In this document: positions 2,900 to 48,728 of the stretch, piece by piece
How positions within the stretch are numbered: position 1 is the stretch's first letter
How the letters are laid out: each line of letters begins with the position of its first letter
IMG/VR virus record: IMGVR_UViG_2609459792_000007
DNA from: a virus
Lineage: Duplodnaviria > Heunggongvirae > Uroviricota > Caudoviricetes
Strand: one strand, 5' to 3'
DNA length: 64,000 nucleotides
The notes under the pieces: generated by a model
Told to the model about the DNA's origin: nothing
The model's input: only the letters and a program-made list of their open reading frames with translations
The model's database searches: none
Translations under genes and position numbers: made by a program

Positions 2900-3035
2900 C
2901 AGGGAAAAGGTTGCATCCCGCTACAGAAACGGCTGGGTTGCCTTCGGGGAACGGCTGGAGGTTTTCAGGGAAACGGTCGAGTTGCCTGTGTGGATTTCGG
3001 GAGAAGGCTCGATGCCGGTTCAGGAACGGTGGCGT
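2900..3035. repeat. iteron-like direct repeats G(G/A)AACGG(C/T), about 22-bp spacing, 5 copies
   Basis: cagaaacggctgg 2924, gggaacggctgg 2947, cagggaaacggtcg 2967, gggagaaggctcg 2998, caggaacggtggc 3021. Confidence 0.6.
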
Positions 3036-3364: not shown

Positions 3365-3380
3365 GAAAACAAGTTGTTTA
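3365..3380. promoter_or_regulatory. operator-like palindrome GAAAACAAGTTGTTTA (family A)
   Basis: Sits 10 nt downstream of GATAAT (3345-3350) and just upstream of RBS aagga. Confidence 0.55.
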
Positions 3381-3391
3381 AGGATTGCTTT

Positions 3392-3721: not shown

Positions 3722-3728
3722 CCCCAAC

Positions 3729-3757
3729 CAAAGCCAGCATTGCTGGCTTAATTTCTC
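3729..3757 (+). terminator. hairpin terminator
   Basis: aagccagc-attg-ctggctt followed by aatttctc. Confidence 0.5.
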
Positions 3758-3848
3758 TATAGCCGCAGGGAAGAACCTGCATATCGCTCATGCACCTGAT
3801 CAATATGCTTTGTAGCCGTTTTCTTACTGGTATTATTTACGCCATTGA

Positions 3849-3864
3849 GAAAACAAGTTGTTTA
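3849..3864. promoter_or_regulatory. operator-like palindrome GAAAACAAGTTGTTTA (family A)
   Basis: Downstream of TATTAT -10-like hexamer, immediately before RBS acggag. Confidence 0.55.
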
Positions 3865-3874
3865 CGGAGTTGTG

Positions 3875-4186
3875 ATGAAAAAATCATTGGTTCTTGGTCT
3901 GGACAAAGACCAGAAGAGAAAAGAGAAGCCTGCGCTGGTTGCTCAATTAACTTTGCTGGACATCGTTGCCAATGGAACCTCTATTCGTCTGTTCCGTGAA
4001 ACAGCGGTGTCTTTCGATAAAAACACCTTTACTCGTTATGTAATGAATGTTCGTCGCCAGCGTGGAAAAGGCTGGGTGGCATTTCAAAGAATGTGGCCGG
4101 AACATCAGCTCGAACTGGCTTTGATGGAAGTTAACCGCGTGGCCCAGCAAGAGATTCAGAGAGCATCAGTGATGGCAATAGCCTGA
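3875..4186 (+). CDS. hypothetical basic protein
   Basis: ATG 3875 with RBS acggag; ORF track start 3845 lies inside the operator. Confidence 0.55.
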   Translation: MKKSLVLGLDKDQKRKEKPALVAQLTLLDIVANGTSIRLFRETAVSFDKNTFTRYVMNVRRQRGKGWVAFQRMWPEHQLELALMEVNRVAQQEIQRASVMAIA

Positions 4187-4220
4187 TAATGTGCAAGTGG
4201 TAATTAGTCGACAGTACGAC

Positions 4221-4249
4221 AGCCCCGCCATCCTTACGGGGCTTTTTTG
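4221..4249 (+). terminator. rho-independent terminator
   Basis: agccccg-ccatccttac-ggggct followed by tttttt. Confidence 0.8.
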
Positions 4250-4253
4250 TATT

Positions 4254-4269
4254 GTAAGTACATACTTAC
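4254..4269. promoter_or_regulatory. palindrome GTAAGTA-CA-TACTTAC (family B, TAAGTA type)
   Basis: Perfect inverted repeat directly after the terminator and upstream of the 4313 gene. Confidence 0.5.
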
Positions 4270-4312
4270 GATCATAGAATATAAAAATAACCAAAACACT
4301 ACGGAGAGTGAA

Positions 4313-4708
4313 ATGACCGTTAAACGCGAAAAACTGACAGTTGATGTTTACTATGCCTCTGAAACCGCCGAAGGTAAGAATGTGGCAAAAATCACCGTTG
4401 TTACGTACAACACCGAAACTGGTGCCGAAGTCCAGGCCAGTACGATTGTGCGTAAAGGTGATGCCTCCGGCGGCGAGTACGCGACTCAATACCAGTCCAT
4501 TCTCGATGCAACTGACCCGCTGCTGCTGAAAATCGAGAACTACTTCCGCCAGGTTGATGAAGAGGTGTTTGAAACCATGATGAATATGGTTAACACCGTA
4601 TTCGCCTCCAGCCTGAATACCAACACTACCTGGATTGGTCAGTACGGCCTGCGCATTACCTCTGGCATTCCTGCCGACACCTTAATCCCTGAAAGCGTAT
4701 TCGCTTAA
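4313..4708 (+). CDS. hypothetical protein
   Basis: ATG 4313 with RBS ggagag 5 nt upstream. Confidence 0.65.
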   Translation: MTVKREKLTVDVYYASETAEGKNVAKITVVTYNTETGAEVQASTIVRKGDASGGEYATQYQSILDATDPLLLKIENYFRQVDEEVFETMMNMVNTVFASSLNTNTTWIGQYGLRITSGIPADTLIPESVFA

Positions 4709-4720
4709 TCCTCTTTAAAT

Positions 4721-4748
4721 GGCGCGTAAACCGCGCCATTTTATTATG
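4721..4748 (+). terminator. rho-independent terminator
   Basis: ggcgcg-taaacc-gcgcc followed by attttatt. Confidence 0.75.
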
Positions 4749-4751
4749 CCC

Positions 4752-4768
4752 GATAACAATTTGTTTTC
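4752..4768. promoter_or_regulatory. operator-like palindrome GATAACAATTTGTTTTC (family A)
   Basis: Same word plus tctgcc flank as the copy at 1244. Confidence 0.5.
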
Positions 4769-4825
4769 TGCCTTATCTGATTTGTGAAAATGATTTCACT
4801 GAAGCAACTTAATAAGGAAACCATC

Positions 4826-5200
4826 ATGGGACTTGATATCTATATCGAGACGCAGCCTAAAAACGATCTGAATAACGAGGCATCCAGAAAGCAGGTTGCT
4901 TACTTCCGTAAGTTCAATGCGCTCGTTGGGTGGATGGAGCGCAACGTAGGTGAAGTCGAAAATTGTGAGCTTTTAGAATTAACGATGAATGACATTTGTT
5001 TTCTGAAGGCTCATTTGATGCACATAAACGAAAGTAATTGCGAAGAGTACTTGCCTACCCGGGAAGGTTTTTTCTTCGGCAGTCAGGAGTACGATGAAGG
5101 TTACTGGCATGATGTGGGGCAGTTGAAAGAGCTTGTGGAAGATCTGATTAAGAACCACGACTTTCACAATAACAGACTGACCTTCTGCGCCTGGTGGTAA
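4826..5200 (+). CDS. hypothetical protein
   Basis: ATG 4826 with RBS aaggaaac; ORF track start at 4784. Confidence 0.6.
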   Translation: MGLDIYIETQPKNDLNNEASRKQVAYFRKFNALVGWMERNVGEVENCELLELTMNDICFLKAHLMHINESNCEEYLPTREGFFFGSQEYDEGYWHDVGQLKELVEDLIKNHDFHNNRLTFCAWW

Positions 5201-5202
5201 AT

Positions 5203-5346
5203 ATGGGCGATTTCAAGAAACGCCTGAAGGAAAGAGCCGAGATGGTCAGAAAGCGAAACGCCTCTTCTGTCATCAGATACGCAAGGCAGTTTAGTCGCAA
5301 CAACAAATCAGTTGAGGAAAAGATCCTTAGCGTAATCGGGCGATAA
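5203..5346 (+). CDS. possible small basic protein (47 aa), below ORF-track size cutoff
   Basis: ATG 3 nt after the upstream stop; K/R-rich translation MGDFKKRLKERAEMVRKRNA...; ends just before terminator. Confidence 0.3.
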   Translation: MGDFKKRLKERAEMVRKRNASSVIRYARQFSRNNKSVEEKILSVIGR

Positions 5347-5349
5347 TTA

Positions 5350-5377
5350 TTAAGGCCACCAGCATTGGTGGCCTTAA
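5350..5377 (+). terminator. hairpin terminator, copy 1 of a twin element
   Basis: ttaaggccacca-gcat-tggtggccttaa. Confidence 0.6.
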
Positions 5378-5501
5378 ATGACTTTTAATAACCGAAGGTT
5401 AGTTTGAAACCTGGCTATCAACTTCCAGAACCTTTCTTGTGTATTCAGCCTGTATTAACTTCTTTTATGCCTTATCTACACTGCGATAATTACACCAACA
5501 A

Positions 5502-5518
5502 GAAAACAACATGTTTAC
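5502..5518. promoter_or_regulatory. operator variant GAAAACAACATGTTTAC (family A)
   Basis: Preceded by GATAAT (5485-5490) plus tacaccaac spacer as at 3345 and 5970. Confidence 0.5.
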
Positions 5519-5535
5519 GCAGTGAGGATATGCTC

Positions 5536-5817
5536 ATGACTGATTTCACCATTACCCCTAAAGCACAAAATGTATTCCTTGAATCATGGCTGGACTTGCC
5601 GGAAACAGAACAGCAAGAAATGGATCATGTGGATTATGACGAGCAGGTAAGCACGCGATTCTTCCACTTTGAGGGCTGCGTTTACGACATTGCCGACTTC
5701 ATGCGAGATGACCGCTTCCCTGAATGGCACGCCAGTTATCCACTAAACGCCTTTGCCATGCTGATGATCCGTGTGGATGATTCAGGGGATACCATCGACA
5801 TCGGTCTGCTCCACTAA
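5536..5817 (+). CDS. hypothetical small acidic protein
   Basis: ATG 5536 with RBS gagga 7 nt upstream; D/E-rich. Confidence 0.6.
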   Translation: MTDFTITPKAQNVFLESWLDLPETEQQEMDHVDYDEQVSTRFFHFEGCVYDIADFMRDDRFPEWHASYPLNAFAMLMIRVDDSGDTIDIGLLH

Positions 5818-5820
5818 AGA

Positions 5821-5848
5821 TTAAGGCCACCAATGCTGGTGGCCTTAA
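5821..5848 (+). terminator. hairpin terminator, copy 2 of twin element (loop inverted)
   Basis: ttaaggccacca-atgc-tggtggccttaa; same stem as 5350 with loop gcat changed to atgc. Confidence 0.6.
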
Positions 5849-5986
5849 ATGACCATCCTGTTTCCCGCAGGCTAAAAACACCAACCTCTTACCTCCAGGC
5901 AACCGACAAACCCACCTGTTCCCGTCCGGCTACCGCAACTTTCCACTTTGACGCCTTATTCGTACAACGATAATTAACACCAACAA

Positions 5987-6002
5987 GAAAACAATTTGTT
6001 AT
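5987..6002. promoter_or_regulatory. sigma70-like promoter plus family A operator GAAAACAATTTGTTAT
   Basis: TTTGAC (5946-5951), 16-nt spacer, GATAAT (5968-5973), then the dyad, then RBS aagga. Confidence 0.6.
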
Positions 6003-10171: not shown

Positions 10172-11731
10172 CTAATCTCGTTTCAGAACTCCAAAATCGA
10201 ATGCTCCATCAATAGGCAATACACCTTCTGCAAAGCCAGGTGTGGTGTCGATGATGTGTTTTCGCTCATAAGAGTGAGACAACAGGTATTTGTTGCTAAT
10301 GTCAATGAAATCAGTGATAAAACACACGTTTGCCTGATTTTTTTTGGCTCGTAAGCCACGACCGACACGCTGTCTCATTTCAACTTCTGCTTTCCCACCA
10401 CCAGCAAGAATGACCGCACCAACGCTTGGCACATCAACACCAACATCCAGAATAGTCGAGCCTATTAAAACATCTATTTCACCAGACGCTAAACTATTCA
10501 GCTTTGCTTGCCTTGTCGTCTGGTTAGATTCCCCATAGATGAAATCAACTTTAAGACCTGACTCCTTCATCATCTCCATCAGGATTTGCCCGTGGCGTTT
10601 AAGACGAACCAGAGTCATGCAGTTGAGTGAATGTTGCTTATAAAGCAATGCCTCGCGCACTATGGCCTCGTTACGTCCCAAATTATACACGATCCCCAAC
10701 TGATAAGCCTTTTGGTAGGCGGTGCCCATACCAACTCTAAAATTGAGGTGTTTGTTGGCAAGTTCGGCCTTGATTCTGGCCTCGTCTGGCTTGTAGGCAA
10801 CTTTATGATAAAGGAAGTACGGCTTTGCCAGAATGCCTCGATCAATCAGGTACTTTTCTGTGACTTTAATTTCAATTCGCCCGGCCACCGCCATCAGGCG
10901 CATGTTGGCTTCCGTCGAATCCTTCATGAACGGCGTGGCTGTAAGCGCCAGACGATAGTCTGCGTTCACACATAATCTGGCAATGTCATAGAAATTAGAG
11001 CCTGAAGACTCATGCGCTTCTTCCAGAATAAGCAGAGACACACTTGAAAGGAAGCGTTTCACCAACTCCCGACGTTTGAGGTGGTAGCTCTTTTTATCTG
11101 GTGTTGCATCGCGTGGTGGTTCTTCAAGGAAACTTGCCAGAGTTTGAACTGTAGCGACGTTGATATGTCGTGATACCTGGAACTCACCCGAGCCAATGAC
11201 TCCAACCTTTTGGCCCTTTAACCACGGTTCGCCATTTTCGGCGCGGTAGTCGATGGATCTCTGGAAGTTTTCGGCCATTTGAAACATCAGAACAGAGCGG
11301 GTTGTTAAAAATAATGTCATTCGACCGATACGTGCAGCTGCTTTGCAGGCAACGTTAGATTTCCCGCCACCAGTAGCGATCTGCGCAATCATCATTCCCT
11401 CTCGAACCAGTGTTTCCACAGTCTGATCCTGATACGCATAATCAGGATTGTATGGGAATGGGTTAACCGCCGGATTTGGTTTACCAAGCGCCGGGGCTTT
11501 GTCTTTGCGGATATGAACACATTTGATGCCCGCCTTGTTCAAGTTCGCCGCTACAGGCTTGGCAAAGCCAGCAGGGAACGAGTTTTTACTCCAGTTGAAC
11601 ATCGTGCTTGTGCCCTTCCAGTCGCCAGTCTCGACTTCGTAGCTCAACATTTGCTGCACCAGTTGCTTTACCTTGTCATCTGCGCCAGAAATAAGCGCAT
11701 TTACTGCGTTAGATACAATCCGAACAGTCAT
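10172..11731 (-). CDS. superfamily 2 DNA/RNA helicase
   Basis: Walker A-like TGGGKS, motif II LILEEAH (DEAH-type), C-terminal helicase-domain-like region. Confidence 0.75.
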   Translation of the reverse strand: MTVRIVSNAVNALISGADDKVKQLVQQMLSYEVETGDWKGTSTMFNWSKNSFPAGFAKPVAANLNKAGIKCVHIRKDKAPALGKPNPAVNPFPYNPDYAYQDQTVETLVREGMMIAQIATGGGKSNVACKAAARIGRMTLFLTTRSVLMFQMAENFQRSIDYRAENGEPWLKGQKVGVIGSGEFQVSRHINVATVQTLASFLEEPPRDATPDKKSYHLKRRELVKRFLSSVSLLILEEAHESSGSNFYDIARLCVNADYRLALTATPFMKDSTEANMRLMAVAGRIEIKVTEKYLIDRGILAKPYFLYHKVAYKPDEARIKAELANKHLNFRVGMGTAYQKAYQLGIVYNLGRNEAIVREALLYKQHSLNCMTLVRLKRHGQILMEMMKESGLKVDFIYGESNQTTRQAKLNSLASGEIDVLIGSTILDVGVDVPSVGAVILAGGGKAEVEMRQRVGRGLRAKKNQANVCFITDFIDISNKYLLSHSYERKHIIDTTPGFAEGVLPIDGAFDFGVLKRD

Positions 11732-11777
11732 AAACCTCTTTCCTTAGTGCCTTTTGTATGTTATTTGGCTATTATAA

Positions 11778-11796
11778 TAAGTAAGTGATTACTTAG
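11778..11796. promoter_or_regulatory. family B motif TAAGTAAGTGATTACTTAG
   Basis: Inverted TAAGTA / TACTTA in divergent intergenic region between helicase and ParB-like genes. Confidence 0.45.
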
Positions 11797-11813
11797 TGGA
11801 TTGTAGCAATAAA

Positions 11814-12494
11814 ATGGATGTAAAAATCACGATTTTGCAGGTTGATGTTGCCAACCTTCGCCCGAATACCTGGAACACCAATTCGGTTGGTGCGCAGAAT
11901 TTTGAAAAACTGAAAGGTTCTATCGAAAAATTGGGCTTTTTTAAGCCAATTTTGGCTCGTGAACTTGAAGATGGATTTTTTGAAATCCTCGGCGGCGAAC
12001 ATCGCTGGCGTGCTGCTATTGAGCAAGGAATTTCAACGGTTCCGGTGCTTTCTGTGGGCAAAATTAGCGATGTCGTAGCTAAACAGATGTCACTGGTGGA
12101 CAACGAGCGATACGGTGAAGACGACCAAATCGCATTGCAACGCTTCATTGAAGAAATTCAGTCAGAACTTGACTATCAACTGTCTGAAATCGCCCCGTAT
12201 GACGACGAAATCTCGATGGTTTTAGCAAAAGAGGCGGCAATCGACCTTGAAGCACTGGAGGCGTTGTCTCGTGGTAGTGATGAGCCTGTCGATACCGACA
12301 AACGAGAGAAAACCGAACGTGTGGGTGCGGAACATCAGACCATGCGCTTCAAAGTAACTTTCGATGCGTCAGATCGTGTTGCAGAAACCATAAAAAACAT
12401 CATCAAAGAGCAGGCTATTAACACCGGTAATGAAATGGAGAACGCTGGTGAGGCTCTGGTGTGGCTGGTCGACTACTACAAGGAGCGTATGTAA
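11814..12494 (+). CDS. ParB N-terminal domain (ParB/Srx-like) protein
   Basis: ILGGEHRWRAA motif typical of ParB-NTD; ATG 11814 (track start 11796). Confidence 0.7.
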   Translation: MDVKITILQVDVANLRPNTWNTNSVGAQNFEKLKGSIEKLGFFKPILARELEDGFFEILGGEHRWRAAIEQGISTVPVLSVGKISDVVAKQMSLVDNERYGEDDQIALQRFIEEIQSELDYQLSEIAPYDDEISMVLAKEAAIDLEALEALSRGSDEPVDTDKREKTERVGAEHQTMRFKVTFDASDRVAETIKNIIKEQAINTGNEMENAGEALVWLVDYYKERM

Positions 12495-13162
12495 TGACCA
12501 AAAAGTTTGAAATCGTATATCGCGACCCGGCAGATCTTATTCCCTATGAGATGAATGCCAAAAAGCATGATGAACAGCAGATCAGAGATCTGGCCGCAGC
12601 CATTAAAAAGCGCGGATTTGACCAGCCAATTACGGTCGATAAGAACGACGTAATTATTACTGGCCACGGCCGCCGTGAGGCTGCAATTTTTGCTGGACTT
12701 GAGCGCGTACCGGTTATTGTTCGCGATGATCTCAGTGATGACGAGGTTCGTGCGAAGCGCCTTGAAGATAACCGACTTGCCAGCATTGATTACGATGCAA
12801 TTAAGCTACAGAAAGAGCTTGAGTCGCTTGTTCTGGACGATATCGAGGTTTTCGGCTTTGAAGAGCGTGAGTTGAATGTTCTCGTTGGCAGTATGACAGA
12901 AGAAATGGACACCGACTCGCTAGTTATCGATCTTGGCGAAGAAACTAAACGACAGAAGGATGAACACACCGAGATCAGTCGTGAAGTTGCAGCGGAAGAA
13001 GTACGTGTTGTCGACGTATTGGGCTTTAAAACGCTCCCTGCTGGCTCTGCCATTGTTGTTGGTGATTTGCTTGCCCATATGGAAGAAATGACGGGAGAAA
13101 GCGGGGTAGACGCATTTGTGGCATATGCGGAGAAGATCTCTTCCGGGGAGATGGCTGCATGA
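12494..13162 (+). CDS. ParB N-terminal domain protein, second copy
   Basis: ITGHGRREAA motif; ATG 12494 overlaps upstream stop (TAATG); RBS aggagcg. Confidence 0.7.
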   Translation: MTKKFEIVYRDPADLIPYEMNAKKHDEQQIRDLAAAIKKRGFDQPITVDKNDVIITGHGRREAAIFAGLERVPVIVRDDLSDDEVRAKRLEDNRLASIDYDAIKLQKELESLVLDDIEVFGFEERELNVLVGSMTEEMDTDSLVIDLGEETKRQKDEHTEISREVAAEEVRVVDVLGFKTLPAGSAIVVGDLLAHMEEMTGESGVDAFVAYAEKISSGEMAA

Positions 13163-13824
13163 GCAAATACATCATCAACGTATCGTTTCAGACACGCGTA
13201 AATAAAACCACGCGCACGTTGGAAATCGCTGAGTCGTTCGGGCTTGGCCTGGACGAAAAAGAGTGGACGCTTTACGACAATCTGGAGCTGGAAGTGAAGC
13301 AGGGCGATGTGGTGTACATCACCGGCCAATCCGGTTCCGGCAAATCCGTTGTGCTGCGCGAGTTGCAACGACAGATGAAGGATGAAGGGCTGTCTGTAGC
13401 CTCCATCGATGATTTTACCTTCGATAATGAGGTTAACGTCATCGATCAGTTGGGCAAAACGACCAGTGATGCGCTTGGGTTGTTATCTATGGCTGGTCTG
13501 AACGATGCATATCTGTTTGTTCGCAAGCCTTCTGAAATGTCAGACGGCCAGAAATATCGTCTCAAGATTGCCAAACTGATTGAGTCAGGCGCTAAAGTAT
13601 GGGCTGCTGACGAGTTCGGCGCTGTTCTCGACCGTGTAACCGCTCAGGTTGTGGCGTCTAACCTCCAGCGTGCCGCGCGAAAGGTTGGTGCGACGGTAAT
13701 GGTGGCGACGACTCACGAAGACCTGAAGAACGCGCTGCGCCCGGATATGCAGATCACCAAGCACTACAAAGAACGCGTGAAGGTGGAATATCACAATGGT
13801 AGTCATGATGAGGTCCATTCATGA
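13159..13824 (+). CDS. minimal ABC-type ATPase
   Basis: Walker A GQSGSGKS, signature-like MSDGQKYRL, Walker B VWAADEFG, H-loop ATTHE. Confidence 0.7.
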   Translation: MSKYIINVSFQTRVNKTTRTLEIAESFGLGLDEKEWTLYDNLELEVKQGDVVYITGQSGSGKSVVLRELQRQMKDEGLSVASIDDFTFDNEVNVIDQLGKTTSDALGLLSMAGLNDAYLFVRKPSEMSDGQKYRLKIAKLIESGAKVWAADEFGAVLDRVTAQVVASNLQRAARKVGATVMVATTHEDLKNALRPDMQITKHYKERVKVEYHNGSHDEVHS

Positions 13825-14711
13825 CGGACATCATCATTAAACGCTACCGCCCTGAAGAGTTTCCGCGTCATCTGGACTTTCTGGAGCGAATGACTGTTAC
13901 AAAGGGAACTGTAGAGGACTGGCACGCTCTTAAGTCGCTTCACTACAAAACAGACGGCAAACCTTTCGCGCCAACTTACTATCGCTGCGAACTTGATGAC
14001 CGTCTGGTGGGCGTCGTGGTTATGGCTTACCCGAAACTACTGTTGGCACCTCGCCACCGCATGTTTCCTAAGTTGAAACCAACCACTAATACCACCGTGG
14101 CTAACCAGTACTGGGGTCGGTACGTGAATAACAACTTTGCGGTGATCAGTCGCTCAGTTGTGGATACTCAGTATCGTGGCGTAGGCGTCTCTTATCGAAT
14201 GATTAACCTGGTTAGCAGGATGCATGACCGGCCAATCATTGAGATCCAGTCCTCGATGAGCAAATACAATCCCTTCGCCATGAAAGCAGGGTTTAAGTTC
14301 ATCCGCCCTGAGCGACCGAAGAGCTATGAAAGTGCACTGCGTGTGTTCCAGCGCCATTTCCGCTCCGACCCGGGTGATAACGAGGCGATCGTCAAAGAGT
14401 TGTTCGCTATGAGCGAGTCTCGTCGTCGCCGTGCGCTGCGCGATTTGGTGGCGGACTACCATAAGAACAGTTCCCTGGCAAAAGCTGGGCGGAATCGTGG
14501 CACGACGATTCAGGACATTGCCGACAGTCTGGTGGACGAGGCCAGCATTGTGAAGCTGCTCAAGGACATTCACAACCTGAGCTTTACGTCTCCGTTGTAT
14601 GGTGTGTACCGAAACCCTGACTTTGGCCGTCGACTGCCTGACACGCTGCCACTGCTGGCATTCGACAAACAACCTTTGGATAAACCGTTAGAAATTGCTT
14701 TACCAGCATAA
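13821..14711 (+). CDS. hypothetical protein, possible acetyltransferase-like fold
   Basis: Translationally coupled to ATPase; segment VVDTQYRGVGVSYRMI resembles GNAT motif A (weak). Confidence 0.5.
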   Translation: MTDIIIKRYRPEEFPRHLDFLERMTVTKGTVEDWHALKSLHYKTDGKPFAPTYYRCELDDRLVGVVVMAYPKLLLAPRHRMFPKLKPTTNTTVANQYWGRYVNNNFAVISRSVVDTQYRGVGVSYRMINLVSRMHDRPIIEIQSSMSKYNPFAMKAGFKFIRPERPKSYESALRVFQRHFRSDPGDNEAIVKELFAMSESRRRRALRDLVADYHKNSSLAKAGRNRGTTIQDIADSLVDEASIVKLLKDIHNLSFTSPLYGVYRNPDFGRRLPDTLPLLAFDKQPLDKPLEIALPA

Positions 14712-14720
14712 GGATTTGCC

Positions 14721-14987
14721 ATGACGTTAACCGACAAACAAAAGGACATCATCAAAACGCTCAATCTCGGTTATGAGCGAGGTCATCTACTTGACCTGGA
14801 CGAATTGCTTGAAGTTTTGCCGTACAAGACAACCAAGCAAAGTATCCAGTTCTCAATTCGCGCTCTGATAAAAAAGGGGCTGGTGGAGAAAGGGCATACG
14901 CGCCAACGCAGTGACAATCGCTATCACCGCCGGACTCTTGGGTTAACCACTTTAGGTCGAGCCAAAGCGAAGTTACTGGTGATGTAA
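14721..14987 (+). CDS. putative winged-helix DNA-binding protein
   Basis: 88-aa basic protein; helix-turn-wing-like segment SIQFSIRALIKKGLVEKGH. Confidence 0.45.
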   Translation: MTLTDKQKDIIKTLNLGYERGHLLDLDELLEVLPYKTTKQSIQFSIRALIKKGLVEKGHTRQRSDNRYHRRTLGLTTLGRAKAKLLVM

Positions 14988-15011
14988 TCGGTCTGGGAGC
15001 TTATTTAAAGA

Positions 15012-15066
15012 CCTGCATCTGTATATATAAATAATAAGTAACTTATTAAATATATACGGAAGCAGG
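15012..15066. repeat. 55-bp imperfect palindromic element, copy 1
   Basis: cctgcatctgtatatataaataataagtaacttattaaatatatacggaagcagg; near-identical copy at 47817-47871. Confidence 0.8.
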
Positions 15067-15102
15067 CTTCGTAAGACATGCCAGACCTAATTAAACACCC
15101 CA

Positions 15103-15144
15103 GAAAACAAGTTGGTTAGCAGATGCAGTAAACAAGTTGTTTTA
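15103..15144. promoter_or_regulatory. two family A operator copies upstream of terminase operon
   Basis: gaaaacaagttggtta (15103-15118) and taaacaagttgtttta (15129-15144), then hairpin gagcgc-atggac-gcgctc. Confidence 0.5.
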
Positions 15145-15182
15145 GAGCGCATGGACGCGCTCTGTGTGTTTTAGAGGGATCT

Positions 15183-15815
15183 ATGACGGTCGAAAAAGAC
15201 GAGGTAAAAACTCGCCTGACACCAGCGGAGTGGGCCGAAGCTGAAGCCAAATGGACGTCAGGCGAATATACACTCTCAAAGCTGGAGGAAGAGTACGGCA
15301 TTCGTCGTGAAACACTCTCCAGACATTTCAAAAAGCGAGGATTAGAGAAAGGCGCGGACTCTGTTGGGAAGATGGTTCGTGAGTCTCTTAAATCTGACGC
15401 AGAGCTTCGCGCTAAAGCCCGTGCGGAAAAGATAGAAGAACGTCGTACACGTTATGACGGCTGGGCGTATGCGTTGGGGCAGATGGTGATGGTCGAAGTC
15501 ACTACGGCCAAACGTGAGGGTAAGCCTTTAGGGGCGATTGAGGATTCTCTCAAGAGCTTACAGAGAGCCAGTAATACCCTTGCAAAATGCTTTGAAGTTT
15601 CGTCCAAAGCATTGGGCATGGATCATGCGGAAAATGACGAGGAAGAAATTCCGAACCTGGTATTTGGTGAGCTTACGCCTTCCCAGGTGGCGAAATTACG
15701 TCAGGAAGACGACGAGCCTGAAATCATCGATGACGAATTGCTTGAGACGTTGGAAGAAGAAGCTCTAAGCGAATTTGATGCGACAGATGATGGAAGTGAA
15801 GGGGAGGACGAATAA
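15183..15815 (+). CDS. putative terminase small subunit
   Basis: HTH-like N-terminus, acidic C-terminus, immediately upstream of and overlapping large terminase. Confidence 0.55.
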   Translation: MTVEKDEVKTRLTPAEWAEAEAKWTSGEYTLSKLEEEYGIRRETLSRHFKKRGLEKGADSVGKMVRESLKSDAELRAKARAEKIEERRTRYDGWAYALGQMVMVEVTTAKREGKPLGAIEDSLKSLQRASNTLAKCFEVSSKALGMDHAENDEEEIPNLVFGELTPSQVAKLRQEDDEPEIIDDELLETLEEEALSEFDATDDGSEGEDE

Positions 15816-17097: not shown

Positions 17098-18672
17098 ATG
17101 GAATTGAACGACAAACAAATTAAGGATCTGGTGGCGCGACGCCACCCGGAATACGAAAAGAAAAAAGAACATTGGGACTTCCTCGCCAGCACTTACGCTG
17201 GCGGGCGTGGTTGGTTTACAGACAATATCTTTCGTTACTTTAAAGAGGGAGATCAGGAGTTTAAGGAGCGAGTTGAACGTGCTTATCGCTTCAACCACAC
17301 TCGTGAGGTGGTAAACCTCATCAACAAATATCTCTTTAAAGAAGACATTCATAGAAATATCGAAGAGGCACCAGAGCAGATCCGCAATTTCTGGAAACGT
17401 GCGACTCGCCAGAATGCCTCTATTGACTCATTTATGGCCGCTATTGATTTGCAGTCGTCTATTTACGGTCGCATATGGGTTGTTGTCGATAGCACGATGA
17501 GTGGTGATGTTGAGTCAGTAGCTGACGAGAAAAAGAAAGATGCTCGCGCCTACGCCTACTGGATTTCACCTCAGCAAATGCTGGATGTGGCATGGGACGA
17601 CGACGGGAATATGTTGTGGGCGTTAATTGTGGAAGTCGCTCGTGATGACGCAGATCCTTTTACTTCTACAGGTCAGGAATACCAACGTTATCGTCTGTGG
17701 ACACAAAACGAGTGGTATCTGTTCCGTGAGGAAGTGAAGAAGGGCGCTGGTGGAGCAGGTCGCCGTCAGGCAAAAGTTATTTTAGAGGATAGCGGTGAGC
17801 ATAATCTCGGCGTAGTTCCTGTGTTTCCTGTTGATTGTATTGGAGAAAGTGAATCACCGTATTTCAGCCCATCGTTGATCGATGATATCGCTTATCTTGA
17901 TCGTGCGGTTGCAAACTATCTGTCAAACCTTGATGCCATTATTCAGGATCAGACATTTAGCCAGTTGGCTATACCGGTACAGTCGCTTTTACCTGGTGAT
18001 GAAAACCACACTAAAGTGCTTGAAATGGGCACAAAGCGAGTCTTCACCTACGATTCTGAAGGTGGAAACCAGCCGTTTTATCTGTCACCAGACCCGAAAC
18101 AAGCTCAGATGATCATCACTACGATTAAGACGGTGATTAACGAAATCTACCATTCAGTTGGTGTAGCTGGTGAGCGAACGAAGCAGGACAACGCACAGGG
18201 AATCGATAATTCATCTGGTGCCGCAAAAATGTATGACTTCCAGCGTGTAAATAGCTTGCTTGTCACAAAAGCAGAGCGTCTGGAAAGGGCTGAACGCCAA
18301 ATCATGCTACTGGTTGCGAAATGGATGGGGGTAGATCTGGACGAAGACCACTCTTTAATTGCATATCCAGAAAGTTTCGATATTCGTGGCCTTACTGATG
18401 AATTTTCTGTTGCCGAGAAACTGTCATTACTTCAGGCACCGGACTCTGTACGTCGTCACCAGATGGAAATGCTTATTGAGAAGATTTTCCCGAACATTAC
18501 TGAGGCGATGAAAAAGGAATTTGATAAAGATCTCTTGAATTTTCCTCCAAAAAATGATCTAAATACCCTTGAAAATAAGTCAGTACTTACTTATGATCGT
18601 GGTGCAGCCCAAGAAAGCGGGCAAGATCAACCCCGAGGGAATGGGGACTCATCTACTCAAGAGAACGAGTGA
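17098..18672 (+). CDS. portal protein
   Basis: 524-aa ORF between terminase and scaffold genes; RBS aaggttattcaaATG. Confidence 0.75.
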   Translation: MELNDKQIKDLVARRHPEYEKKKEHWDFLASTYAGGRGWFTDNIFRYFKEGDQEFKERVERAYRFNHTREVVNLINKYLFKEDIHRNIEEAPEQIRNFWKRATRQNASIDSFMAAIDLQSSIYGRIWVVVDSTMSGDVESVADEKKKDARAYAYWISPQQMLDVAWDDDGNMLWALIVEVARDDADPFTSTGQEYQRYRLWTQNEWYLFREEVKKGAGGAGRRQAKVILEDSGEHNLGVVPVFPVDCIGESESPYFSPSLIDDIAYLDRAVANYLSNLDAIIQDQTFSQLAIPVQSLLPGDENHTKVLEMGTKRVFTYDSEGGNQPFYLSPDPKQAQMIITTIKTVINEIYHSVGVAGERTKQDNAQGIDNSSGAAKMYDFQRVNSLLVTKAERLERAERQIMLLVAKWMGVDLDEDHSLIAYPESFDIRGLTDEFSVAEKLSLLQAPDSVRRHQMEMLIEKIFPNITEAMKKEFDKDLLNFPPKNDLNTLENKSVLTYDRGAAQESGQDQPRGNGDSSTQENE

Positions 18673-45857: not shown

Positions 45858-46526
45858 ATGACCAAGATCTTTGTGGTTGGCGGCACAAAGGGCGGGCCTG
45901 GCAAATCCACCGTTGCCCAGCAAATTGCCGTTTGCCTGAAAGTCAAAAAGAAGAAGAAGGTTTATATCACTGATATAGATATTCAGCGCACGACAACAAG
46001 CTGGTGTGAAGACCGTCGACAGAACGAAGACCTTGAGCTGATTCCTTTTGCATACGTTCAGGATGACATCATTAAGCACCTAAAATCGCTTCAGGGTAGA
46101 GCTGAGTTTGTAGTGGTAGATGCTGGTGGCTTTGACTCCGAAATTCAGCGACAAGCGATGCTGATGGCCGACGTTATCATTATCCCGCTTCGTCCTAAGC
46201 GTCGTGATTTGAAATCTCTGCGTGACATCGATCCTATTATCGACAATGTTCGTAATGTAAACGATAAAGTGAAGGTCCGCGCGGTCATGAACCAGTGCCC
46301 GGCTTTGCCATCACAAGTGTCTCGCATTCTGGCGGCTAAAGAGATTGTCGAGACGTTTGGCATCGAGTCTGCGCCAGTCAATCTATATAACCGCAACGTC
46401 TACGATGATGCGGAAGAGTCAGGTCGTTCTATCTTTGAAATGACCGGTAGCGAGCGCGACAAAAAGGCGGAAGCCGAGTTTGAAGAATTTGTAGATTATC
46501 TGTTGAGTCTGGAGGAAGAAGAATAA
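45858..46526 (+). CDS. ParA/MinD-family partition ATPase (small type)
   Basis: Deviant Walker A GGTKGGPGKST; about 220 aa. Confidence 0.8.
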   Translation: MTKIFVVGGTKGGPGKSTVAQQIAVCLKVKKKKKVYITDIDIQRTTTSWCEDRRQNEDLELIPFAYVQDDIIKHLKSLQGRAEFVVVDAGGFDSEIQRQAMLMADVIIIPLRPKRRDLKSLRDIDPIIDNVRNVNDKVKVRAVMNQCPALPSQVSRILAAKEIVETFGIESAPVNLYNRNVYDDAEESGRSIFEMTGSERDKKAEAEFEEFVDYLLSLEEEE

Positions 46527-46885
46527 TGTCCATGAAAATGGGTGACCTAGCAAAGCGCAAAGAGCCTGATGCACCGGCTAAGAACACAACTCCTTTGCGC
46601 CAACCAGTCAGACCACAAGGACGCCCGACTCGTGGCAAAGAGAAAATTAAAAGCCGCACTATGTCACTGGAAGACGAATACTTCGAGCTTCTGGAAATGA
46701 TGAAGTTTATCCCTCGTTTCGAGAAGTTCACCCGCTCTGATGTGATTCGTGCTGCTATTTTCCATCTGGCAGAGAAGTCACCGCAGGAAATCGAGGACAT
46801 CGTGAAACTTAACGAGGCGATCACCGCTGCCGATGTCACGATGCGTACCGATGAAATCAAACGAGAGTTGATGAAGAAAGGTTAA
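46526..46885 (+). CDS. putative partition centromere-binding protein
   Basis: Coupled to ParA-like gene (ATGTCCATG overlap); basic N-terminus and ribbon-helix-helix-like C-terminal half. Confidence 0.5.
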   Translation: MSMKMGDLAKRKEPDAPAKNTTPLRQPVRPQGRPTRGKEKIKSRTMSLEDEYFELLEMMKFIPRFEKFTRSDVIRAAIFHLAEKSPQEIEDIVKLNEAITAADVTMRTDEIKRELMKKG

Positions 46886-46937: not shown

Positions 46938-47705
46938 TTATGCCGCGCTAACACTATGTTCAGTCCTAACCACCCCAACCTTCACAAAAGGGCTACCGTA
47001 GCTTGGTGGCTTCTTGATTAATTTGCCTACATACAGTTTTCTAATATGCTCATCGGCTATTCTGCCAACAAATTCATATCGTTTTGTGTCGGGGCCAAGA
47101 GCTATATCCCTTGTAAAGTACTGCTGAGAACCGGCTTTGACCCAGCATTCAATCTGATAAACTTCCATTATTAGCCCACCATATGTAGCGTAGGCATATT
47201 TGAGATTCTCGTCTCTTGGAACCTTTGCCCATACGCCACGCGTAGCTTCATATAATGCCAGAGCGGACATTCCTGATTTGTAGGTGCTGTTTAGCAGGAA
47301 GGCAAGACCGGCGTGCTCAGGAGCAATTTCAGTTTCCTCTTGCAGCACTAAGTGATGGTAGGCGTCCAGTGATATTCTGCCCATCATGGAACCACTTCCT
47401 CGAACCTTATTCGTAAGCTCTCCGACCCCCATAAGGTCGATGCATGTCGCCTCAACAAGTTTGGCTGTGGTTTCATCCATACCATGACGAAGAATATCTA
47501 TGCCTAATTTTTTATTAGCCAAAAGTTCTTTGATCCGCATGGATTTGGGAGAGTCATCGGGATACTTGATGTGATCGAGACAACGAGTCGATTTGCCTTT
47601 TCCTATGTAAAACGGTCTTTTCATCTTGTCTTCTGTATCATAGAGACAGTAAACATAGTATTTAGCCTTATCCAAGGATCTCGCGTATACCGATAAATCG
47701 TCCAT
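46938..47705 (-). CDS. GIY-YIG nuclease domain protein
   Basis: N-terminal YYVYCLY ... FYIGKGK motif. Confidence 0.6.
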   Translation of the reverse strand: MDDLSVYARSLDKAKYYVYCLYDTEDKMKRPFYIGKGKSTRCLDHIKYPDDSPKSMRIKELLANKKLGIDILRHGMDETTAKLVEATCIDLMGVGELTNKVRGSGSMMGRISLDAYHHLVLQEETEIAPEHAGLAFLLNSTYKSGMSALALYEATRGVWAKVPRDENLKYAYATYGGLIMEVYQIECWVKAGSQQYFTRDIALGPDTKRYEFVGRIADEHIRKLYVGKLIKKPPSYGSPFVKVGVVRTEHSVSAA

Positions 47706-47816
47706 TATTGCATCTCTTAGCTACTGACTAATGCGTTCTATTTTACACATAAGTTTTTAATCAATTTAACAGGCTCAAAGTGTAGAGCTTCTGGGCGTCT
47801 AAGACGACAAGTTATG

Positions 47817-47871
47817 CCTGCTTCTGTATATATAAATAATAAGTAACTTATTAAATATATACGGAAGCAGG
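47817..47871. repeat. 55-bp imperfect palindromic element, copy 2
   Basis: Identical to copy at 15012 except one base (cctgcTtctg vs cctgcAtctg). Confidence 0.8.
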
Positions 47872-47952
47872 TCTTTTAAAAGACACCACCAGAACAACTC
47901 CCTTCCGTTTCCACTTCCAAAAACTGCCACCAGTCGCTATCATCCGCTCATT

Positions 47953-47976: not shown

Positions 47977-47987
47977 AGGTGAGCCAC

Positions 47988-48728
47988 ATGAGCCAAATCT
48001 TTTTCGATACCATCGACAACGACCAGTACGACTTCATGACAGAGTGGAATACCGCTGTTATGGACAAGTGGGTCGCTGAAAACATTGGTTTGTCGCGCTG
48101 TAAAGACGAGGCTGAACTCTTCGAGACGAAGTGGTTTGATTACCGCGACATGCATCCTCTCATGGCCACCTGTCTTTTTACGGAGGCATACAAACGTCAG
48201 TACTCAAATATCATGCTGACGCACGGTCGCGAACACTTTGAAACAGCTCCGTTCACCACCGGGTTAAAACGCCTGCCTTATCAGGAGTTGTCGACTGCCA
48301 ATAAAACGTCGCTATGGAAAGCACGCCAGTTTGCGGATCGCTATTGCTGCTCATACGACTATTTTATCTCCACCGTTCTTTCCGCAGCTGCACGACGGCT
48401 GTGGGACAAGCTGCCGCGCCCACAGCATTTATGGCAGCCAGAGCTGGTTGAGATATTCGAAGAGAAATTAGCCAGACGCGCAACAACCCGTCTGGATGAC
48501 TCTCTGGTTAGTTTTAAGCATATGGGAGACATGCAGTTCAACCCGATTCAGGAAAGCTATTTTGAGTGGATTCTGGAGCGTTTACGCGCCATCCCCCGCA
48601 GCAAGCGCATACGCGCAATTTTCTCCGCTATCTGGCTAATGGAAATCGTTCCAGAGCGCCTTATTTCCGCCCACTTTCCAGAAGAACTGGAAGAAGCACG
48701 GCGGTTTATTGATCCCCTATCTAATTAA
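47988..48728 (+). CDS. hypothetical protein upstream of replicative helicase
   Basis: ATG 47988 with RBS aggtgag; position suggests a replication accessory role. Confidence 0.55.
   Translation: MSQIFFDTIDNDQYDFMTEWNTAVMDKWVAENIGLSRCKDEAELFETKWFDYRDMHPLMATCLFTEAYKRQYSNIMLTHGREHFETAPFTTGLKRLPYQELSTANKTSLWKARQFADRYCCSYDYFISTVLSAAARRLWDKLPRPQHLWQPELVEIFEEKLARRATTRLDDSLVSFKHMGDMQFNPIQESYFEWILERLRAIPRSKRIRAIFSAIWLMEIVPERLISAHFPEELEEARRFIDPLSN

What the first reader, a model, noticed from the sequence alone, without database searches (positions are those of the whole stretch)
15012..15066. Duplicated 55-bp imperfect palindrome 32.8 kb apart (second copy 47817-47871)
Two copies differing by one base sit in the intergenic region before the terminase operon and between the GIY-YIG gene and the replication genes. 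An AT-rich dyad of this size could be a regulator binding site, a bidirectional terminator, or a recombination or nuclease recognition site.
Basis: seen in the sequence. Interest (0 to 1): 0.6.

Follow-up and report, generated by a model that had tools for sequence, protein, structure and literature searches.

The report
Triplicated boundary dyad of SSU5-like phage-plasmids
The two 55-bp palindromes are real and belong to a conserved, undescribed three-copy DNA signal that marks the junctions between the virion, replication and plasmid-maintenance gene blocks of SSU5-type phage-plasmids (the family that includes Yersinia pestis pMT1); its exact job is still unknown.

Summary
In detail: 15012-15066 and 47817-47871 differ by one base, with 0 matches expected by chance. 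The window is an E. coli SSU5-like phage-plasmid. A third copy lies outside the window in a near-identical plasmid.

Three intact genomes (E. coli proxy, Salmonella phage SSU5, a Klebsiella plasmid) each carry exactly three copies. All are intergenic and co-oriented. They sit at the junctions of the virion/lysis, replication and plasmid/lysogeny modules.

The conserved part is two inverted 14-bp boxes (CCTGCKTYYGTATA). They clamp a 23-29-bp spacer of 80-93% A+T that varies in sequence and length. Inverted TCTGGG/CCCAGA hexamers flank the boxes. Box variants combine without regard to complementarity, so each box looks like a separate recognition site rather than half of a stem.

Sites B and C are followed by a T-run on the + strand only; site A is not. 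Relatives with only 59-75% identical terminase keep an AT-rich dyad at the same place with different arms.

My best reading is an element-specific protein-binding boundary site, with B and C doubling as terminators. Plain terminator, lytic origin, centromere-like and packaging (pac) readings are not excluded.

The GIY-YIG gene is a PD-T4-3-type defence cargo and is not a partner of the site. I found no description of the element in the literature I could search.

The parts
15012..15066 (+). Site A core: left box CCTGCATCTGTATA, 27-bp spacer of 93% A+T, right box TATACGGAAGCAGG
   Evidence: The A at box position 6 was seen only in this window's sequence among the 64 distinct site sequences collected.
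14990..15087 (+). Site A extended dyad: outer inverted GGTCTGG (14990-14996) and CCAGACC (15081-15087) around the core
   Evidence: one hairpin of -44.2 kcal/mol. (31 pairs, 96% of cells paired, 4 pairs with compensatory change).
47817..47871 (+). Site B core: CCTGCTTCTGTATA, AT-rich spacer, TATACGGAAGCAGG
47788..47895 (+). Site B extended dyad: CTTCTGGG (47788-47795) upstream and CCAGAAC (47889-47895) downstream of the core
47872..47879 (+). T-rich tail TCTTTTAA directly 3' of site B (terminator-like on the + strand only)
   Evidence: mean 5.6 T in the 8 nt after site B in 23 variants, against 3.5 on the other strand.
15105..15142 (+). Two operator-like dyads, AAACAAGTTGGTT and AAACAAGTTGTTT, between site A and the terS-like gene (context, a separate repeat family)
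   Evidence: 13 copies in the window against 0.45 expected.
15143..15174 (+). Canonical GC hairpin plus T-run just before the terS-like gene (context)
   Evidence: Conserved in SSU5 and pMT1.
14721..14987 (+). 88-aa winged-helix protein gene ending 3 nt before the site A dyad (candidate binder, inferred only)
   Evidence: sub-threshold LexA/Lrs14 wHTH hits. (AF2, pLDDT 72.5). (the LexA DNA-binding domain is the top fold match, with a weak E-value).
15183..15815 (+). terS-like DNA-binding protein gene, the first gene of the virion module after site A
   Evidence: phrog_867. (SSU5_001). (annotated as terminase small subunit in Cyrano).
46938..47705 (-). GIY-YIG gene in the variable cargo slot left of site B; not part of the element
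   Evidence: PF22945, E 5.5e-7. (PD-T4-3, E 1.3e-23). The slot holds other genes in SSU5 and Klebsiella.
47979..48728 (+). 249-aa orphan protein gene, the first gene of the replication module after site B
   Evidence: phrog_2500, unknown function. (confident helical model with no PDB fold match).
45858..46885 (+). ParA-like ATPase (222 aa) plus a 119-aa protein; this operon is the conserved left neighbour of site B when no cargo is present
   Evidence: In L115 the palindrome starts 26 nt after this operon.

Best explanation
Each copy is a cis-acting DNA site specific to SSU5-type phage-plasmids. Two inverted 14-bp boxes (consensus CCTGCKTYYGTATA) clamp a 23-29-bp spacer of 80-93% A+T. One inverted TCTGGG lies upstream, and one to several CCCAGA(C)-like repeats lie downstream.

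An intact genome has exactly three copies in the same orientation. They sit where the plasmid/lysogeny block meets the virion block (A), the virion/lysis block meets the replication block (B), and the replication block meets the plasmid block (C).

The most likely mechanism is that an element-encoded DNA-binding protein recognises the boxes, and probably the flanking hexamers, on duplex or extruded DNA. The three junctions would then be controlled together as boundary or regulatory elements. At B and C the GC clamp followed by a T-run also acts as a + strand intrinsic terminator that closes the upstream block.

Shown here: the anatomy, copy number, positions, orientation, the conservation pattern, and the independence of the two boxes.
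Inferred only: that a protein binds, which protein it is, and that the outcome is transcriptional boundary control.
For: Reality and distribution:
- The pair is real.
- A profile search finds exactly three copies, with the + orientation scoring higher, in the E. coli proxy genome, SSU5 and K. pneumoniae p23-2.
- All 120 viral-contig hits map to site A, B or C.
- All 7 hits in 185,579 species-representative genomes are SSU5-like contigs.

Conservation pattern:
- Boxes are 89-94% identical between both orthologous and paralogous sites, while ungapped 40-nt flanks are 27-42% identical.
- A relative whose neighbouring protein is only 64% identical keeps identical boxes with an unrelated centre.
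- The centre folds no better than shuffled centres in many variants (mean z -1.3), and total length varies 51-57 bp.

Independence of the two boxes:
- Four box variants combine without regard to complementarity. Examples: left CGTCTG with right TT(T/C)CG in 21 contigs; left CTTCCG with right CGTCTG in 14 contigs.
- The Y9/R47 combinations fit independent variation.

Terminator component and deep conservation:
- The T-run is on the + strand only, at B (5.6 T of 8) and C (4.7 T of 8).
- Relatives with 59-75% identical TerL, and Acinetobacter plasmids, keep an AT-rich dyad with other arms at the same places. In Acinetobacter it has CTTGGG/CCCAAG outer repeats.
- A winged-helix gene ends 3 nt before site A.
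Against: - No binding protein is identified, and there are no binding or transcript data. The only expression table found shows background on both sides of A in lysogeny.
- The spacer length varies by up to 6 bp, which argues against a rigid dimer bridging both boxes.
- Site A shows some compensatory changes in its outer helix. These are site-specific rather than genome-wide. This favours a nucleic-acid structure, or at least local dyad symmetry, over a simple change in protein specificity.
- Hairpins of -18 to -32 kcal/mol form in every variant, so an RNA-level role cannot be excluded.
- In this window B lies between divergent genes, and the parA operon has its own terminator at 46893-46921. 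A terminator role is therefore not obviously needed there.
Confidence: 0.4

Rival explanations
1. Plain factor-independent transcription terminators. The RNA hairpins stop + strand transcription at the end of each of the three co-directional gene blocks, and no trans-acting factor reads the sequence.
For: - In SSU5 all three sites lie at the 3' ends of + strand gene strings.
- The hairpins are strong.
- A + strand T-run follows B and C.
- In Morganella, a canonical GC hairpin plus T-run occupies the site B position.
- Distant relatives conserve the position but not the sequence, as terminators do.
Against: - Site A has no T-run (3.0 T of 8 on either strand), and a separate canonical terminator follows it at 15143-15174.
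- Box sequence is near-invariant across genera and across the three sites, while arm variants break pairing at 2-3 positions in dozens of contigs.
- Many variants leave 23-29-nt unpaired loops.
- Dyads in distant relatives have 43-77-bp centres and no T-run.
Confidence: 0.2
2. Lytic replication origins or initiator/helicase loading sites. Inverted initiator boxes flank an AT-rich unwinding element with iteron-like CCAGAC repeats, used when the plasmid switches to phage replication.
For: - The architecture is origin-like: inverted boxes, a spacer of 80-93% A+T with (TA)n, and 4-6 CCAGAC-like repeats about 11 bp apart after site C.
- Site B lies directly upstream of the orphan 249-aa gene, the DnaB-like helicase and the primase.
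- The Acinetobacter counterpart has doubled CTTGGG/CCCAAG repeats around an AT-rich core next to replication genes.
- From my own knowledge, not tested here: phage SPP1 has two origin sites about 32 kb apart, and T4 and T7 have several origins.
Against: - Cumulative GC skew shows no turning point at the sites.
- No initiator is identified. The 249-aa protein has no fold match.
- Sites A and C are not next to replication-initiation genes.
- pMT1 keeps only site A, although it has lost the helicase and primase region.
Confidence: 0.15
3. Dispersed centromere-like or clamp-loading sites for an element-encoded partition or silencing protein (the ParA plus 119-aa pair, or the two ParB_N proteins). 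This would resemble N15 SopB sites, RK2 KorB OB sites or pSM19035 omega sites.
For: - Three palindromes are spread about one third of the circle apart.
- The parA-119aa operon is the conserved left neighbour of B.
- The 119-aa protein has a weak ribbon-helix-helix-like hit.
- A ParB_N x2 / ABC-ATPase / wHTH operon ends at site A in every lineage examined, including distant ones.
- The phage-defective E. albertii plasmid keeps two copies plus parA.
Against: - The boxes are 14 bp and about 25 bp apart, unlike known parS, sopC or OB sites.
- pMT1 lacks parA-119aa yet keeps a perfect site A.
- In Acinetobacter a different dyad pair (18106 and 68232) sits next to parA, while the A/B-type elements lie elsewhere.
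- There is no evidence that the ParB_N proteins bind DNA specifically.
Confidence: 0.1
4. Packaging recognition site (pac or cos). The terS-like protein binds the TCTGGG/CCCAGA repeats and terminase cuts in the AT-rich centre.
For: - Site A lies directly upstream of terS-terL in all lineages.
- The SSU5 GenBank record starts inside site A (window 15049).
- Repeats flanking a central region recall the P1 and SPP1 pac sites (my own knowledge).
Against: - There are three copies per genome, two of them far from the terminase genes.
- The Cyrano record start was copied from SSU5, so it is not independent evidence.
- Palindromes also break assemblies, which could explain the SSU5 record start.
- TerL carries Terminase_6N, Terminase_3 and Terminase_6C domains. 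From my own knowledge these fit headful packaging, where no precise end is expected.
Confidence: 0.06
5. RNase III-type processing hairpins that cut long polycistronic transcripts at module junctions, as the R sites of phage T7 do.
For: - The hairpins are about 100 nt, imperfect, and fold at -41 to -44 kcal/mol.
- They sit between gene blocks and share sequence, as T7 R sites do (my own knowledge).
- Site A shows some compensatory change.
Against: - Neither strand is preferred in folding energy (20 against 19 variants).
- Arm variants break pairing.
- Site B in this window is not inside an obvious + strand transcript.
- The window gave no Rfam hit other than three tRNAs.
Confidence: 0.05
6. 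Recombination, homing or mobile element: a target of the GIY-YIG nuclease, a site-specific recombination site, or a miniature transposable element.
For: - The slot left of B carries different cargo in different lineages.
- An extra copy in E. albertii p3RM15112 sits at a junction with 2.2 kb of foreign toxin-antitoxin DNA.
- 'One flank novel' is more frequent at the sites than at control positions (18 against 9 and 6).
Against: - Lineage switches are not enriched at the sites (4 against 7 and 6 at controls).
- Positions are fixed, and no copies occur elsewhere in 2.9 million viral contigs or 185,579 genomes.
- Three direct copies of a recombination site would fragment the genome.
- The GIY-YIG gene is a PD-T4-3-type defence gene and is absent from most lineages that have the site.
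Confidence: 0.04

Closest known systems
Dispersed palindromic protein-binding sites of plasmids and phage-plasmids: N15 SopB centromere repeats, RK2 KorB OB operators, pSM19035 omega parS1-3 (recalled from my own knowledge, not tested here)
   Same: A few copies of one dyad are scattered round a plasmid or phage-plasmid in intergenic or promoter-proximal positions. The sequence is specific to the element and shared between copies within a genome. ParA-type and ParB_N-type genes are present nearby.
   Different: Known sites are short (13-16-bp palindromes or 7-bp heptad arrays). Here two 14-bp boxes lie about 25 bp apart with extra outer hexamers. No cognate protein is shown. pMT1 keeps site A without parA-119aa.
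Rho-independent (intrinsic) terminators
   Same: A GC-rich stem base followed by a T-run on the transcribed strand at B and C, at the ends of co-directional gene strings.
   Different: Site A has no T-run. The stem sequence is conserved instead of co-varying freely. Arm variants break pairs. The AT-rich interior is long and often unpaired.
Origin-type architecture: inverted initiator boxes flanking an AT-rich unwinding element, with iterons (for example archaeal ORB/DUE, lambda ori, SPP1 oriL/oriR; my own knowledge)
   Same: Inverted boxes, a spacer of 80-93% A+T, neighbouring short direct repeats, and one copy next to the helicase and primase genes.
   Different: There are three equivalent copies. 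No initiator is known, there is no skew signal, and the plasmid replicon (repA) lies elsewhere.
Protelomerase target telRL of N15-type linear phage-plasmids (a 56-bp palindrome; my own knowledge)
   Same: Similar size (55-57 bp), a palindrome with a TA-rich centre, further inverted repeats outside it, and a phage-plasmid host element.
   Different: The complete plasmid records (pTIC, K. pneumoniae p23-2, E. albertii p3RM15112, A. baumannii, pMT) are circular; the SSU5 phage record is deposited as linear. There are three internal copies. No protelomerase was seen among the annotated genes of the records read.

Membership tests
Intrinsic terminator | Stable GC-rich stem-loop in the transcript | tested here: met
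   All 43 distinct cores fold at -17.5 to -32 kcal/mol. With flanks they fold at -41 to -44 kcal/mol.
Intrinsic terminator | U-tract immediately 3' of the stem on the transcribed strand | tested here: inconclusive
   Met at B (5.6 T of 8) and C (4.7 T of 8). Not met at A (3.0 of 8, the same as the opposite strand).
Intrinsic terminator | Stem evolves by compensatory change, with sequence free to vary | tested here: not met
   Boxes are 89-94% identical across genera and sites. Variants combine into 2-3 mismatches per stem in 35 or more contigs.
Dispersed centromere or global-regulator sites (N15 SopB, RK2 KorB, pSM19035 omega) | Several copies of one element-specific dyad dispersed on the replicon | tested here: met
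   Exactly 3 copies in each of three intact genomes, 30-50 kb apart.
Dispersed centromere or global-regulator sites (N15 SopB, RK2 KorB, pSM19035 omega) | A cognate ParB- or RHH-type protein that binds the site and co-occurs with it | tested here: inconclusive
   ParA plus the 119-aa protein, and two ParB_N proteins, are present. However pMT1 keeps site A without parA-119aa. Binding cannot be tested with these tools.
Replication origin | AT-rich unwinding element flanked by repeated initiator-binding sites | tested here: met
   Spacer of 80-93% A+T between inverted boxes. CCAGAC-like repeats lie downstream.
Replication origin | Initiator protein, and replication starting at the site | not testable with these tools
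   No initiator was identified. GC skew is uninformative. Marker-frequency data are needed.
pac/cos packaging site | A single site next to the terminase genes, where virion DNA ends map | tested here: not met
   There are three copies, and only A is next to terS/terL. The SSU5 record start inside A is the only hint, and the Cyrano start is derived from it.
Protelomerase target (telRL) | Linear replicon with hairpin ends and a protelomerase gene | tested here: not met
   The complete plasmid records (pTIC, K. pneumoniae p23-2, E. albertii p3RM15112, A. baumannii, pMT) are circular; the SSU5 phage record is deposited as linear. The sites are internal.
Miniature mobile element / IS end | Copies at variable positions, also outside the family | tested here: not met
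   All 120 viral-contig hits and all 7 genome hits are at sites A, B or C of SSU5-like elements. The one exception is a rearranged E. albertii plasmid.
Known RNA family (Rfam) | Match to a curated covariance model | tested here: not met
   Only three tRNAs reach gathering score in the window.

The most novel reading that the evidence does not exclude
The three sites could be the switch points of the phage-plasmid life style. In this reading they are co-oriented loading sites, each an AT-rich unwinding or cruciform-prone core clamped by specific boxes. An element-encoded factor would start lytic replication there, or load a ParB-like/ABC-ATPase machine encoded by the operon that ends at site A. 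Alternatively, the element's own Mre11/SbcC-type nuclease would make programmed breaks there to start recombination-dependent replication. Either way, one protein-site pair would coordinate all three gene modules.
Probability: 0.15. Interest if true: 0.75.

Novelty: new member of a known kind. Interest (0 to 1): 0.45.

Why it matters
SSU5-type phage-plasmids are very common in Enterobacterales. 837 plasmid records matched the site A region. They include Y. pestis pMT1, SSU5-like plasmids of Salmonella enterica (the published group name is SSU5_pHCM2), and many Klebsiella, Enterobacter and E. coli plasmids.

In the papers I could search, nothing describes how these elements separate plasmid maintenance, replication and virion expression, or where lytic replication and packaging start.

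A three-copy, family-specific cis-signal at exactly the three module junctions gives a concrete handle for experiments. It can be mutated, footprinted or used as bait to find the protein that reads it.

It is also a practical marker. It defines module borders, including the cargo/defence slot left of site B, and it explains why assemblies and records tend to break at these points.

Tried and rejected
- **Literature.** I found no paper holding 'SSU5' with 'palindrome', none with terminase/packaging/cos terms, and none containing the box sequences. Two phage-plasmid papers say nothing about the site. The SSU5 genome announcement and a 2026 preprint are not held in the library.
- **Rfam.** The window gives only tRNAs.
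- **Sigma-70 promoters.** The scan finds none around either copy.
- **GC skew.** It rises monotonically through A, B and C, with no origin or terminus signal.
- **Strand-specific RNA signal.** There is none: folding energy favours + in 20 variants and - in 19. The C/A combination at positions 9/47 is not depleted (3 observed, 4.5 expected).
- **Recombination hot spot.** Lineage switches are no more frequent at the sites than 800 nt away.
- **Arms of distant lineages in viral contigs.** One pattern gave two chance hits and the other gave none, so I could not test whether those lineages also have three copies.
- **The 249-aa protein after site B.** No Pfam, NCBIfam or PDB sequence hit, and no fold match despite a confident model.
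- **Expression table for Cyrano (pLF82).** Background on both sides of site A in lysogeny, so it is uninformative.
- **Cyrano record start as independent evidence for a physical end.** Rejected, because the record is pLF82 re-annotated and starts one base from the SSU5 record start; that it was oriented on SSU5 is my inference.
- **An early coordinate mapping of the window onto MF554642.1** was wrong: the record has about 4.4 kb more than the window. I corrected it.

Full report
**1. The observation**

The 55-mer is present at 15012-15066 and 47817-47871 on the + strand. The only difference is position 6: A in copy A and T in copy B. No other match with up to 3 mismatches exists in the window, and 100 shuffles gave none. 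Both copies are imperfect palindromes. Their cores fold at -11.9 and -15.2 kcal/mol as DNA (z -5.7 and -9.0).

The dyad extends beyond the reported coordinates. At A, GGTCTGG (14990-14996) pairs with CCAGACC (15081-15087). At B, CTTCTGGG (47788-47795) mirrors CCAGAAC (47889-47895). These give ~100-nt hairpins of -44.2 and -41.5 kcal/mol as RNA. Both copies are intergenic.

**2. What the window is**

The window is an SSU5-like phage-plasmid of E. coli.
- The 1.1-kb site A region is 100% identical to plasmid pTIC (MF554642.1).
- The two site regions tested (3 kb each) are 97.5-99.7% identical to Escherichia phages CMS-2020a and Cyrano.
- The same regions are about 80% identical to Salmonella phage SSU5.
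- 837 plasmid records match the site A region, from Klebsiella, Escherichia, Enterobacter, Yersinia (pMT1), Salmonella and others.

Gene context:
- Upstream of A lies an operon of two ParB_N proteins, an ABC-type ATPase, a 296-aa protein and an 88-aa protein.
- Downstream of A come the terS-like gene, terL and the virion genes.
- Upstream of B lie a ParA-like ATPase, a 119-aa protein and the minus-strand GIY-YIG gene.
- Downstream of B come a 249-aa orphan protein, a DnaB-like helicase and a primase.

**3. A third copy, and exactly three per genome**

I scanned the rest of the near-identical plasmid MF554642.1. A third copy lies at its positions 14812-14866. It has the same orientation as A and B, the same arms and a diverged centre, and it lies between a DNA methylase gene and a small gene.

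A profile built from all collected copies finds exactly three sites in each of three genomes:

| Genome | Site A | Site B | Site C |
|---|---|---|---|
| E. coli proxy (108.7 kb) | 15012 | 47817 | ~92759 |
| SSU5 | across the record ends | 33458 | 78304 |
| K. pneumoniae p23-2 | 21822 | 58027 | 108266 |

In every case the + orientation scores higher.

The three sites divide the circle into three blocks:
- A to B: virion, lysis and parA genes.
- B to C: replication and nucleotide metabolism.
- C to A: plasmid replicon, lysogeny control and accessory genes.

**4. Distribution**

Every one maps to site A, B or C of an SSU5-like element. The same pattern in one genome from each of 185,579 species gave only 7 hits. 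All are site A or B of SSU5-like contigs, from Kluyvera, Buttiauxella, Y. pestis and one probably mis-binned MAG.

The degenerate pMT1 keeps only site A, in perfect form. It has lost the B and C regions and the parA-119aa operon.

E. albertii p3RM15112 is a rearranged derivative without virion genes. It keeps B and has one extra copy at a junction with 2.2 kb of foreign toxin-antitoxin DNA.

**5. What is conserved**

The arms are conserved and the centre is not.
- Across nine sites in three genomes, the 14-bp boxes are 89-94% identical, both between orthologous sites and between the three sites of one genome. Ungapped 40-nt flanks are 27-42% identical.
- Total length varies from 51 to 57 bp, largely through (TA)n and A/T changes.
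- The centre is 80-93% A+T. In many variants it folds no better than a shuffled centre (mean z -1.3).
- A relative whose 249-aa protein is only 64% identical has identical boxes around an unrelated, non-palindromic centre.

Outside the boxes, a TCTGGG-type hexamer lies 12-22 nt upstream. Its complement CCCAGA(C) lies 15-20 nt downstream. After site C there are 4-6 further CCAGAC-like repeats about 11 bp apart.

**6. Hairpin or recognition site?**

Two results point in different directions.

*For a structure or local dyad symmetry.* Over 17 distinct site A sequences the extended dyad keeps 96% of cells paired, and 4 pairs show compensatory change. In one lineage the outer helix changed from GGTCTGGG/CCCAGACC to CAACTGGG/CTCAGTT, while site C on the same contig kept the standard motif. 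That favours local dyad symmetry or base pairing.

*For independent recognition boxes.* The boxes come in four variants: CCTGCTTCTG, CCTGCTTCCG, CCTGCTTTCG and CCTGCGTCTG. These combine without regard to complementarity.
- Site A of the Klebsiella type has left CGTCTG with right TT(T/C)CG in 21 contigs.
- Site C of the SSU5 type has left CTTCCG with right CGTCTG in 14 contigs.
- Both arms carry TTTCG at site C in 13 contigs.
- The Y9/R47 combinations (TG 18, CG 15, TA 8, CA 3) fit independent variation (3 CA observed, 4.5 expected).
- Neither strand folds better overall (20 against 19).

I read this as follows: each box is a recognition unit with consensus CCTGCKTYYGTATA. Pairing between the two boxes is not the main constraint.

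**7. The terminator component**

The 8 nt after the right box hold on average 5.6 T at B and 4.7 T at C, but only 3.0 T at A. The mirror positions on the other strand hold 3.1-3.5 T. So B and C look like + strand intrinsic terminators and A does not. A is followed 75 nt later by a separate canonical GC hairpin plus T-run (15143-15174).

In Morganella, the site B position holds an ordinary terminator hairpin. In this window the parA operon already has its own terminator at 46893-46921, and B lies between divergent genes. Termination therefore cannot be the whole story.

**8. Distant relatives**

Elements with only 59-75% identical TerL keep the synteny ParB_N / ABC ATPase / small protein / gap / terS / terL. 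The gap holds an AT-rich dyad with unrelated arms: ACCGCGCTTCC...GGGAACGCGGT in one lineage and GTTTTGCTCC...GGAGCAAAAC in another.

In an Acinetobacter phage-plasmid, the site B position reads: CTTGGG x2, GATCACTAT, AT-rich core, ATAGTGATTC, CCCAAG x2. The doubled CTTGGG motif recurs only at the site A position.

So the position and architecture are old, the arms are lineage-specific, and copies within a genome share sequence. This pattern is expected for sites read by an element-encoded factor. I could not test whether these lineages also have three copies.

**9. Candidate partners**

- The 88-aa protein encoded 3 nt upstream of site A is predicted to be a winged helix (AF2 pLDDT 72.5). LexA DNA-binding domains are the top fold matches, but E-values are weak and the family hits are sub-threshold.
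- The 119-aa protein has a weak ribbon-helix-helix-like hit.
- The 249-aa protein gives a confident helical model with no fold match.
- The GIY-YIG ORF matches the PD-T4-3 defence family (E 1.3e-23). It occupies a slot that holds DUF2971 in SSU5 and a P-loop NTPase in Klebsiella. It is cargo, not a partner of the site.

**10. Other readings tested**

- *Packaging.* The SSU5 record starts inside site A. The Cyrano record is pLF82 re-annotated and starts one base from the SSU5 start; that it was oriented on SSU5 is my inference. Palindromes also break assemblies, and three copies do not fit a pac or cos site.
- *Recombination.* Lineage switches are not enriched at the sites (4 against 7 and 6 at controls). 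Novel DNA does abut the sites more often (18 against 9 and 6), which reflects the cargo slot left of B.
- *Origin.* The architecture fits, but GC skew is uninformative and no initiator is known.
- *Centromere.* It is conceivable by analogy with N15, RK2 and pSM19035. However pMT1 keeps site A without parA-119aa, and in Acinetobacter a different dyad pair accompanies parA.
- *Expression data.* The data for Cyrano in lysogeny are at background on both sides of A.

**11. Verdict**

The finding is real and larger than reported. It is a conserved, three-copy composite dyad at the three module junctions of SSU5-type phage-plasmids, and I found no description of it in the literature I could search.

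The best-supported reading is an element-specific protein-recognition and boundary site, with B and C doubling as + strand terminators (confidence about 0.4). Plain terminators (0.2), lytic origins (0.15) and centromere-like sites (0.1) remain open. In kind it is a new member of known classes of cis-acting sites. Its interest lies in giving a direct experimental handle on how this very common phage-plasmid family is organised.

Noticed in passing
window 1245-6001, 15105-15142, 45810-45822, 48740-48752, 59279-59291: The operator-like dyad AAACAANTTGTTT occurs 13 times with up to 1 mismatch, against 0.45 expected. Most copies lie 15-40 nt upstream of gene starts, and two lie between site A and the terS-like gene. 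It looks like the dispersed operator of a global repressor.
   Followed up: partly
window 11774-11795, 18572-18593, 30569-30590, 37481-37502, 42866-42887, 47954-47975, 51387-51408, 54910-54931, 61413-61455: A second repeat family, ATAAGTA-N4-5-TACTTA(CTTA) / TGATAAGTAAGTAC..ACCTAC, lies upstream of many genes in all modules. Acinetobacter relatives carry an analogous TCAGTCA..TGACTGA motif. It may be a promoter or operator of the family.
   Followed up: partly
window 46938-47705 (-): The 'GIY-YIG gene' matches the single-gene anti-phage defence family PD-T4-3 (E 1.3e-23). It sits in a slot left of site B whose content differs between lineages: DUF2971 in SSU5, a P-loop NTPase in Klebsiella, and nothing in some. 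This looks like a cargo/defence hot spot.
   Followed up: partly
window 11796-14987; L132, L133, L134, L140: An operon of two ParB_N proteins, an ABC-type ATPase, a ~296-aa protein and a small winged-helix protein is conserved directly upstream of terS-terL. This holds even in relatives with 59-75% identical TerL. Its function is unknown, and it may belong to packaging or to whatever reads site A.
   Followed up: partly
window 47900-47923: The stretch CCCTTCCGTTTCCACTTCCAAAAA (three spaced TTCC repeats) between site B and the 249-aa gene is conserved from E. coli to SSU5 and beyond.
   Followed up: no
NC_018843.1 position 1 (window 15049): The SSU5 GenBank record begins inside site A, 10 nt right of the dyad centre. 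The Klebsiella p23-2 record begins about 100 nt after site C. These may be physical ends or assembly breaks at palindromes.
   Followed up: partly
window 5350-5377 and 5821-5848: Twin 28-bp perfect GC-rich hairpins (TTAAGGCCACC...GGTGGCCTTAA) flank a small gene. In E. albertii p3RM15112 this cassette is replaced by a palindrome copy plus toxin-antitoxin genes.
   Followed up: partly
window 38271-41118: Internal direct repeats of 113-201 nt and 39 nt lie inside the 1385-aa tail-fibre-like ORF 37547-41704 (families D1, D2, D4).
   Followed up: no
window 55682-55925: There is a cluster of three tRNA genes (Rfam).
   Followed up: no
window 10172-11731 (-): The DEAD/DEAH helicase gene that diverges from the ParB_N operon matches PbeA-type defence models (E 1e-22).
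   Followed up: no
NZ_CP115646.1 18106-18157 and 68232-68283 (L139, L140): The Acinetobacter phage-plasmid has a different pair of related dyads (GTATTACCGT...ACGGTAATAC) 50 kb apart. One is next to its parA and integrase genes. They could be its centromere or resolution sites.
   Followed up: no
Cyrano CYRAN_43 (paper PMC9928086, Table 1): One hypothetical gene of the LF82 phage-plasmid is expressed 723-fold above the local background in lysogeny, according to that paper.
   Followed up: no
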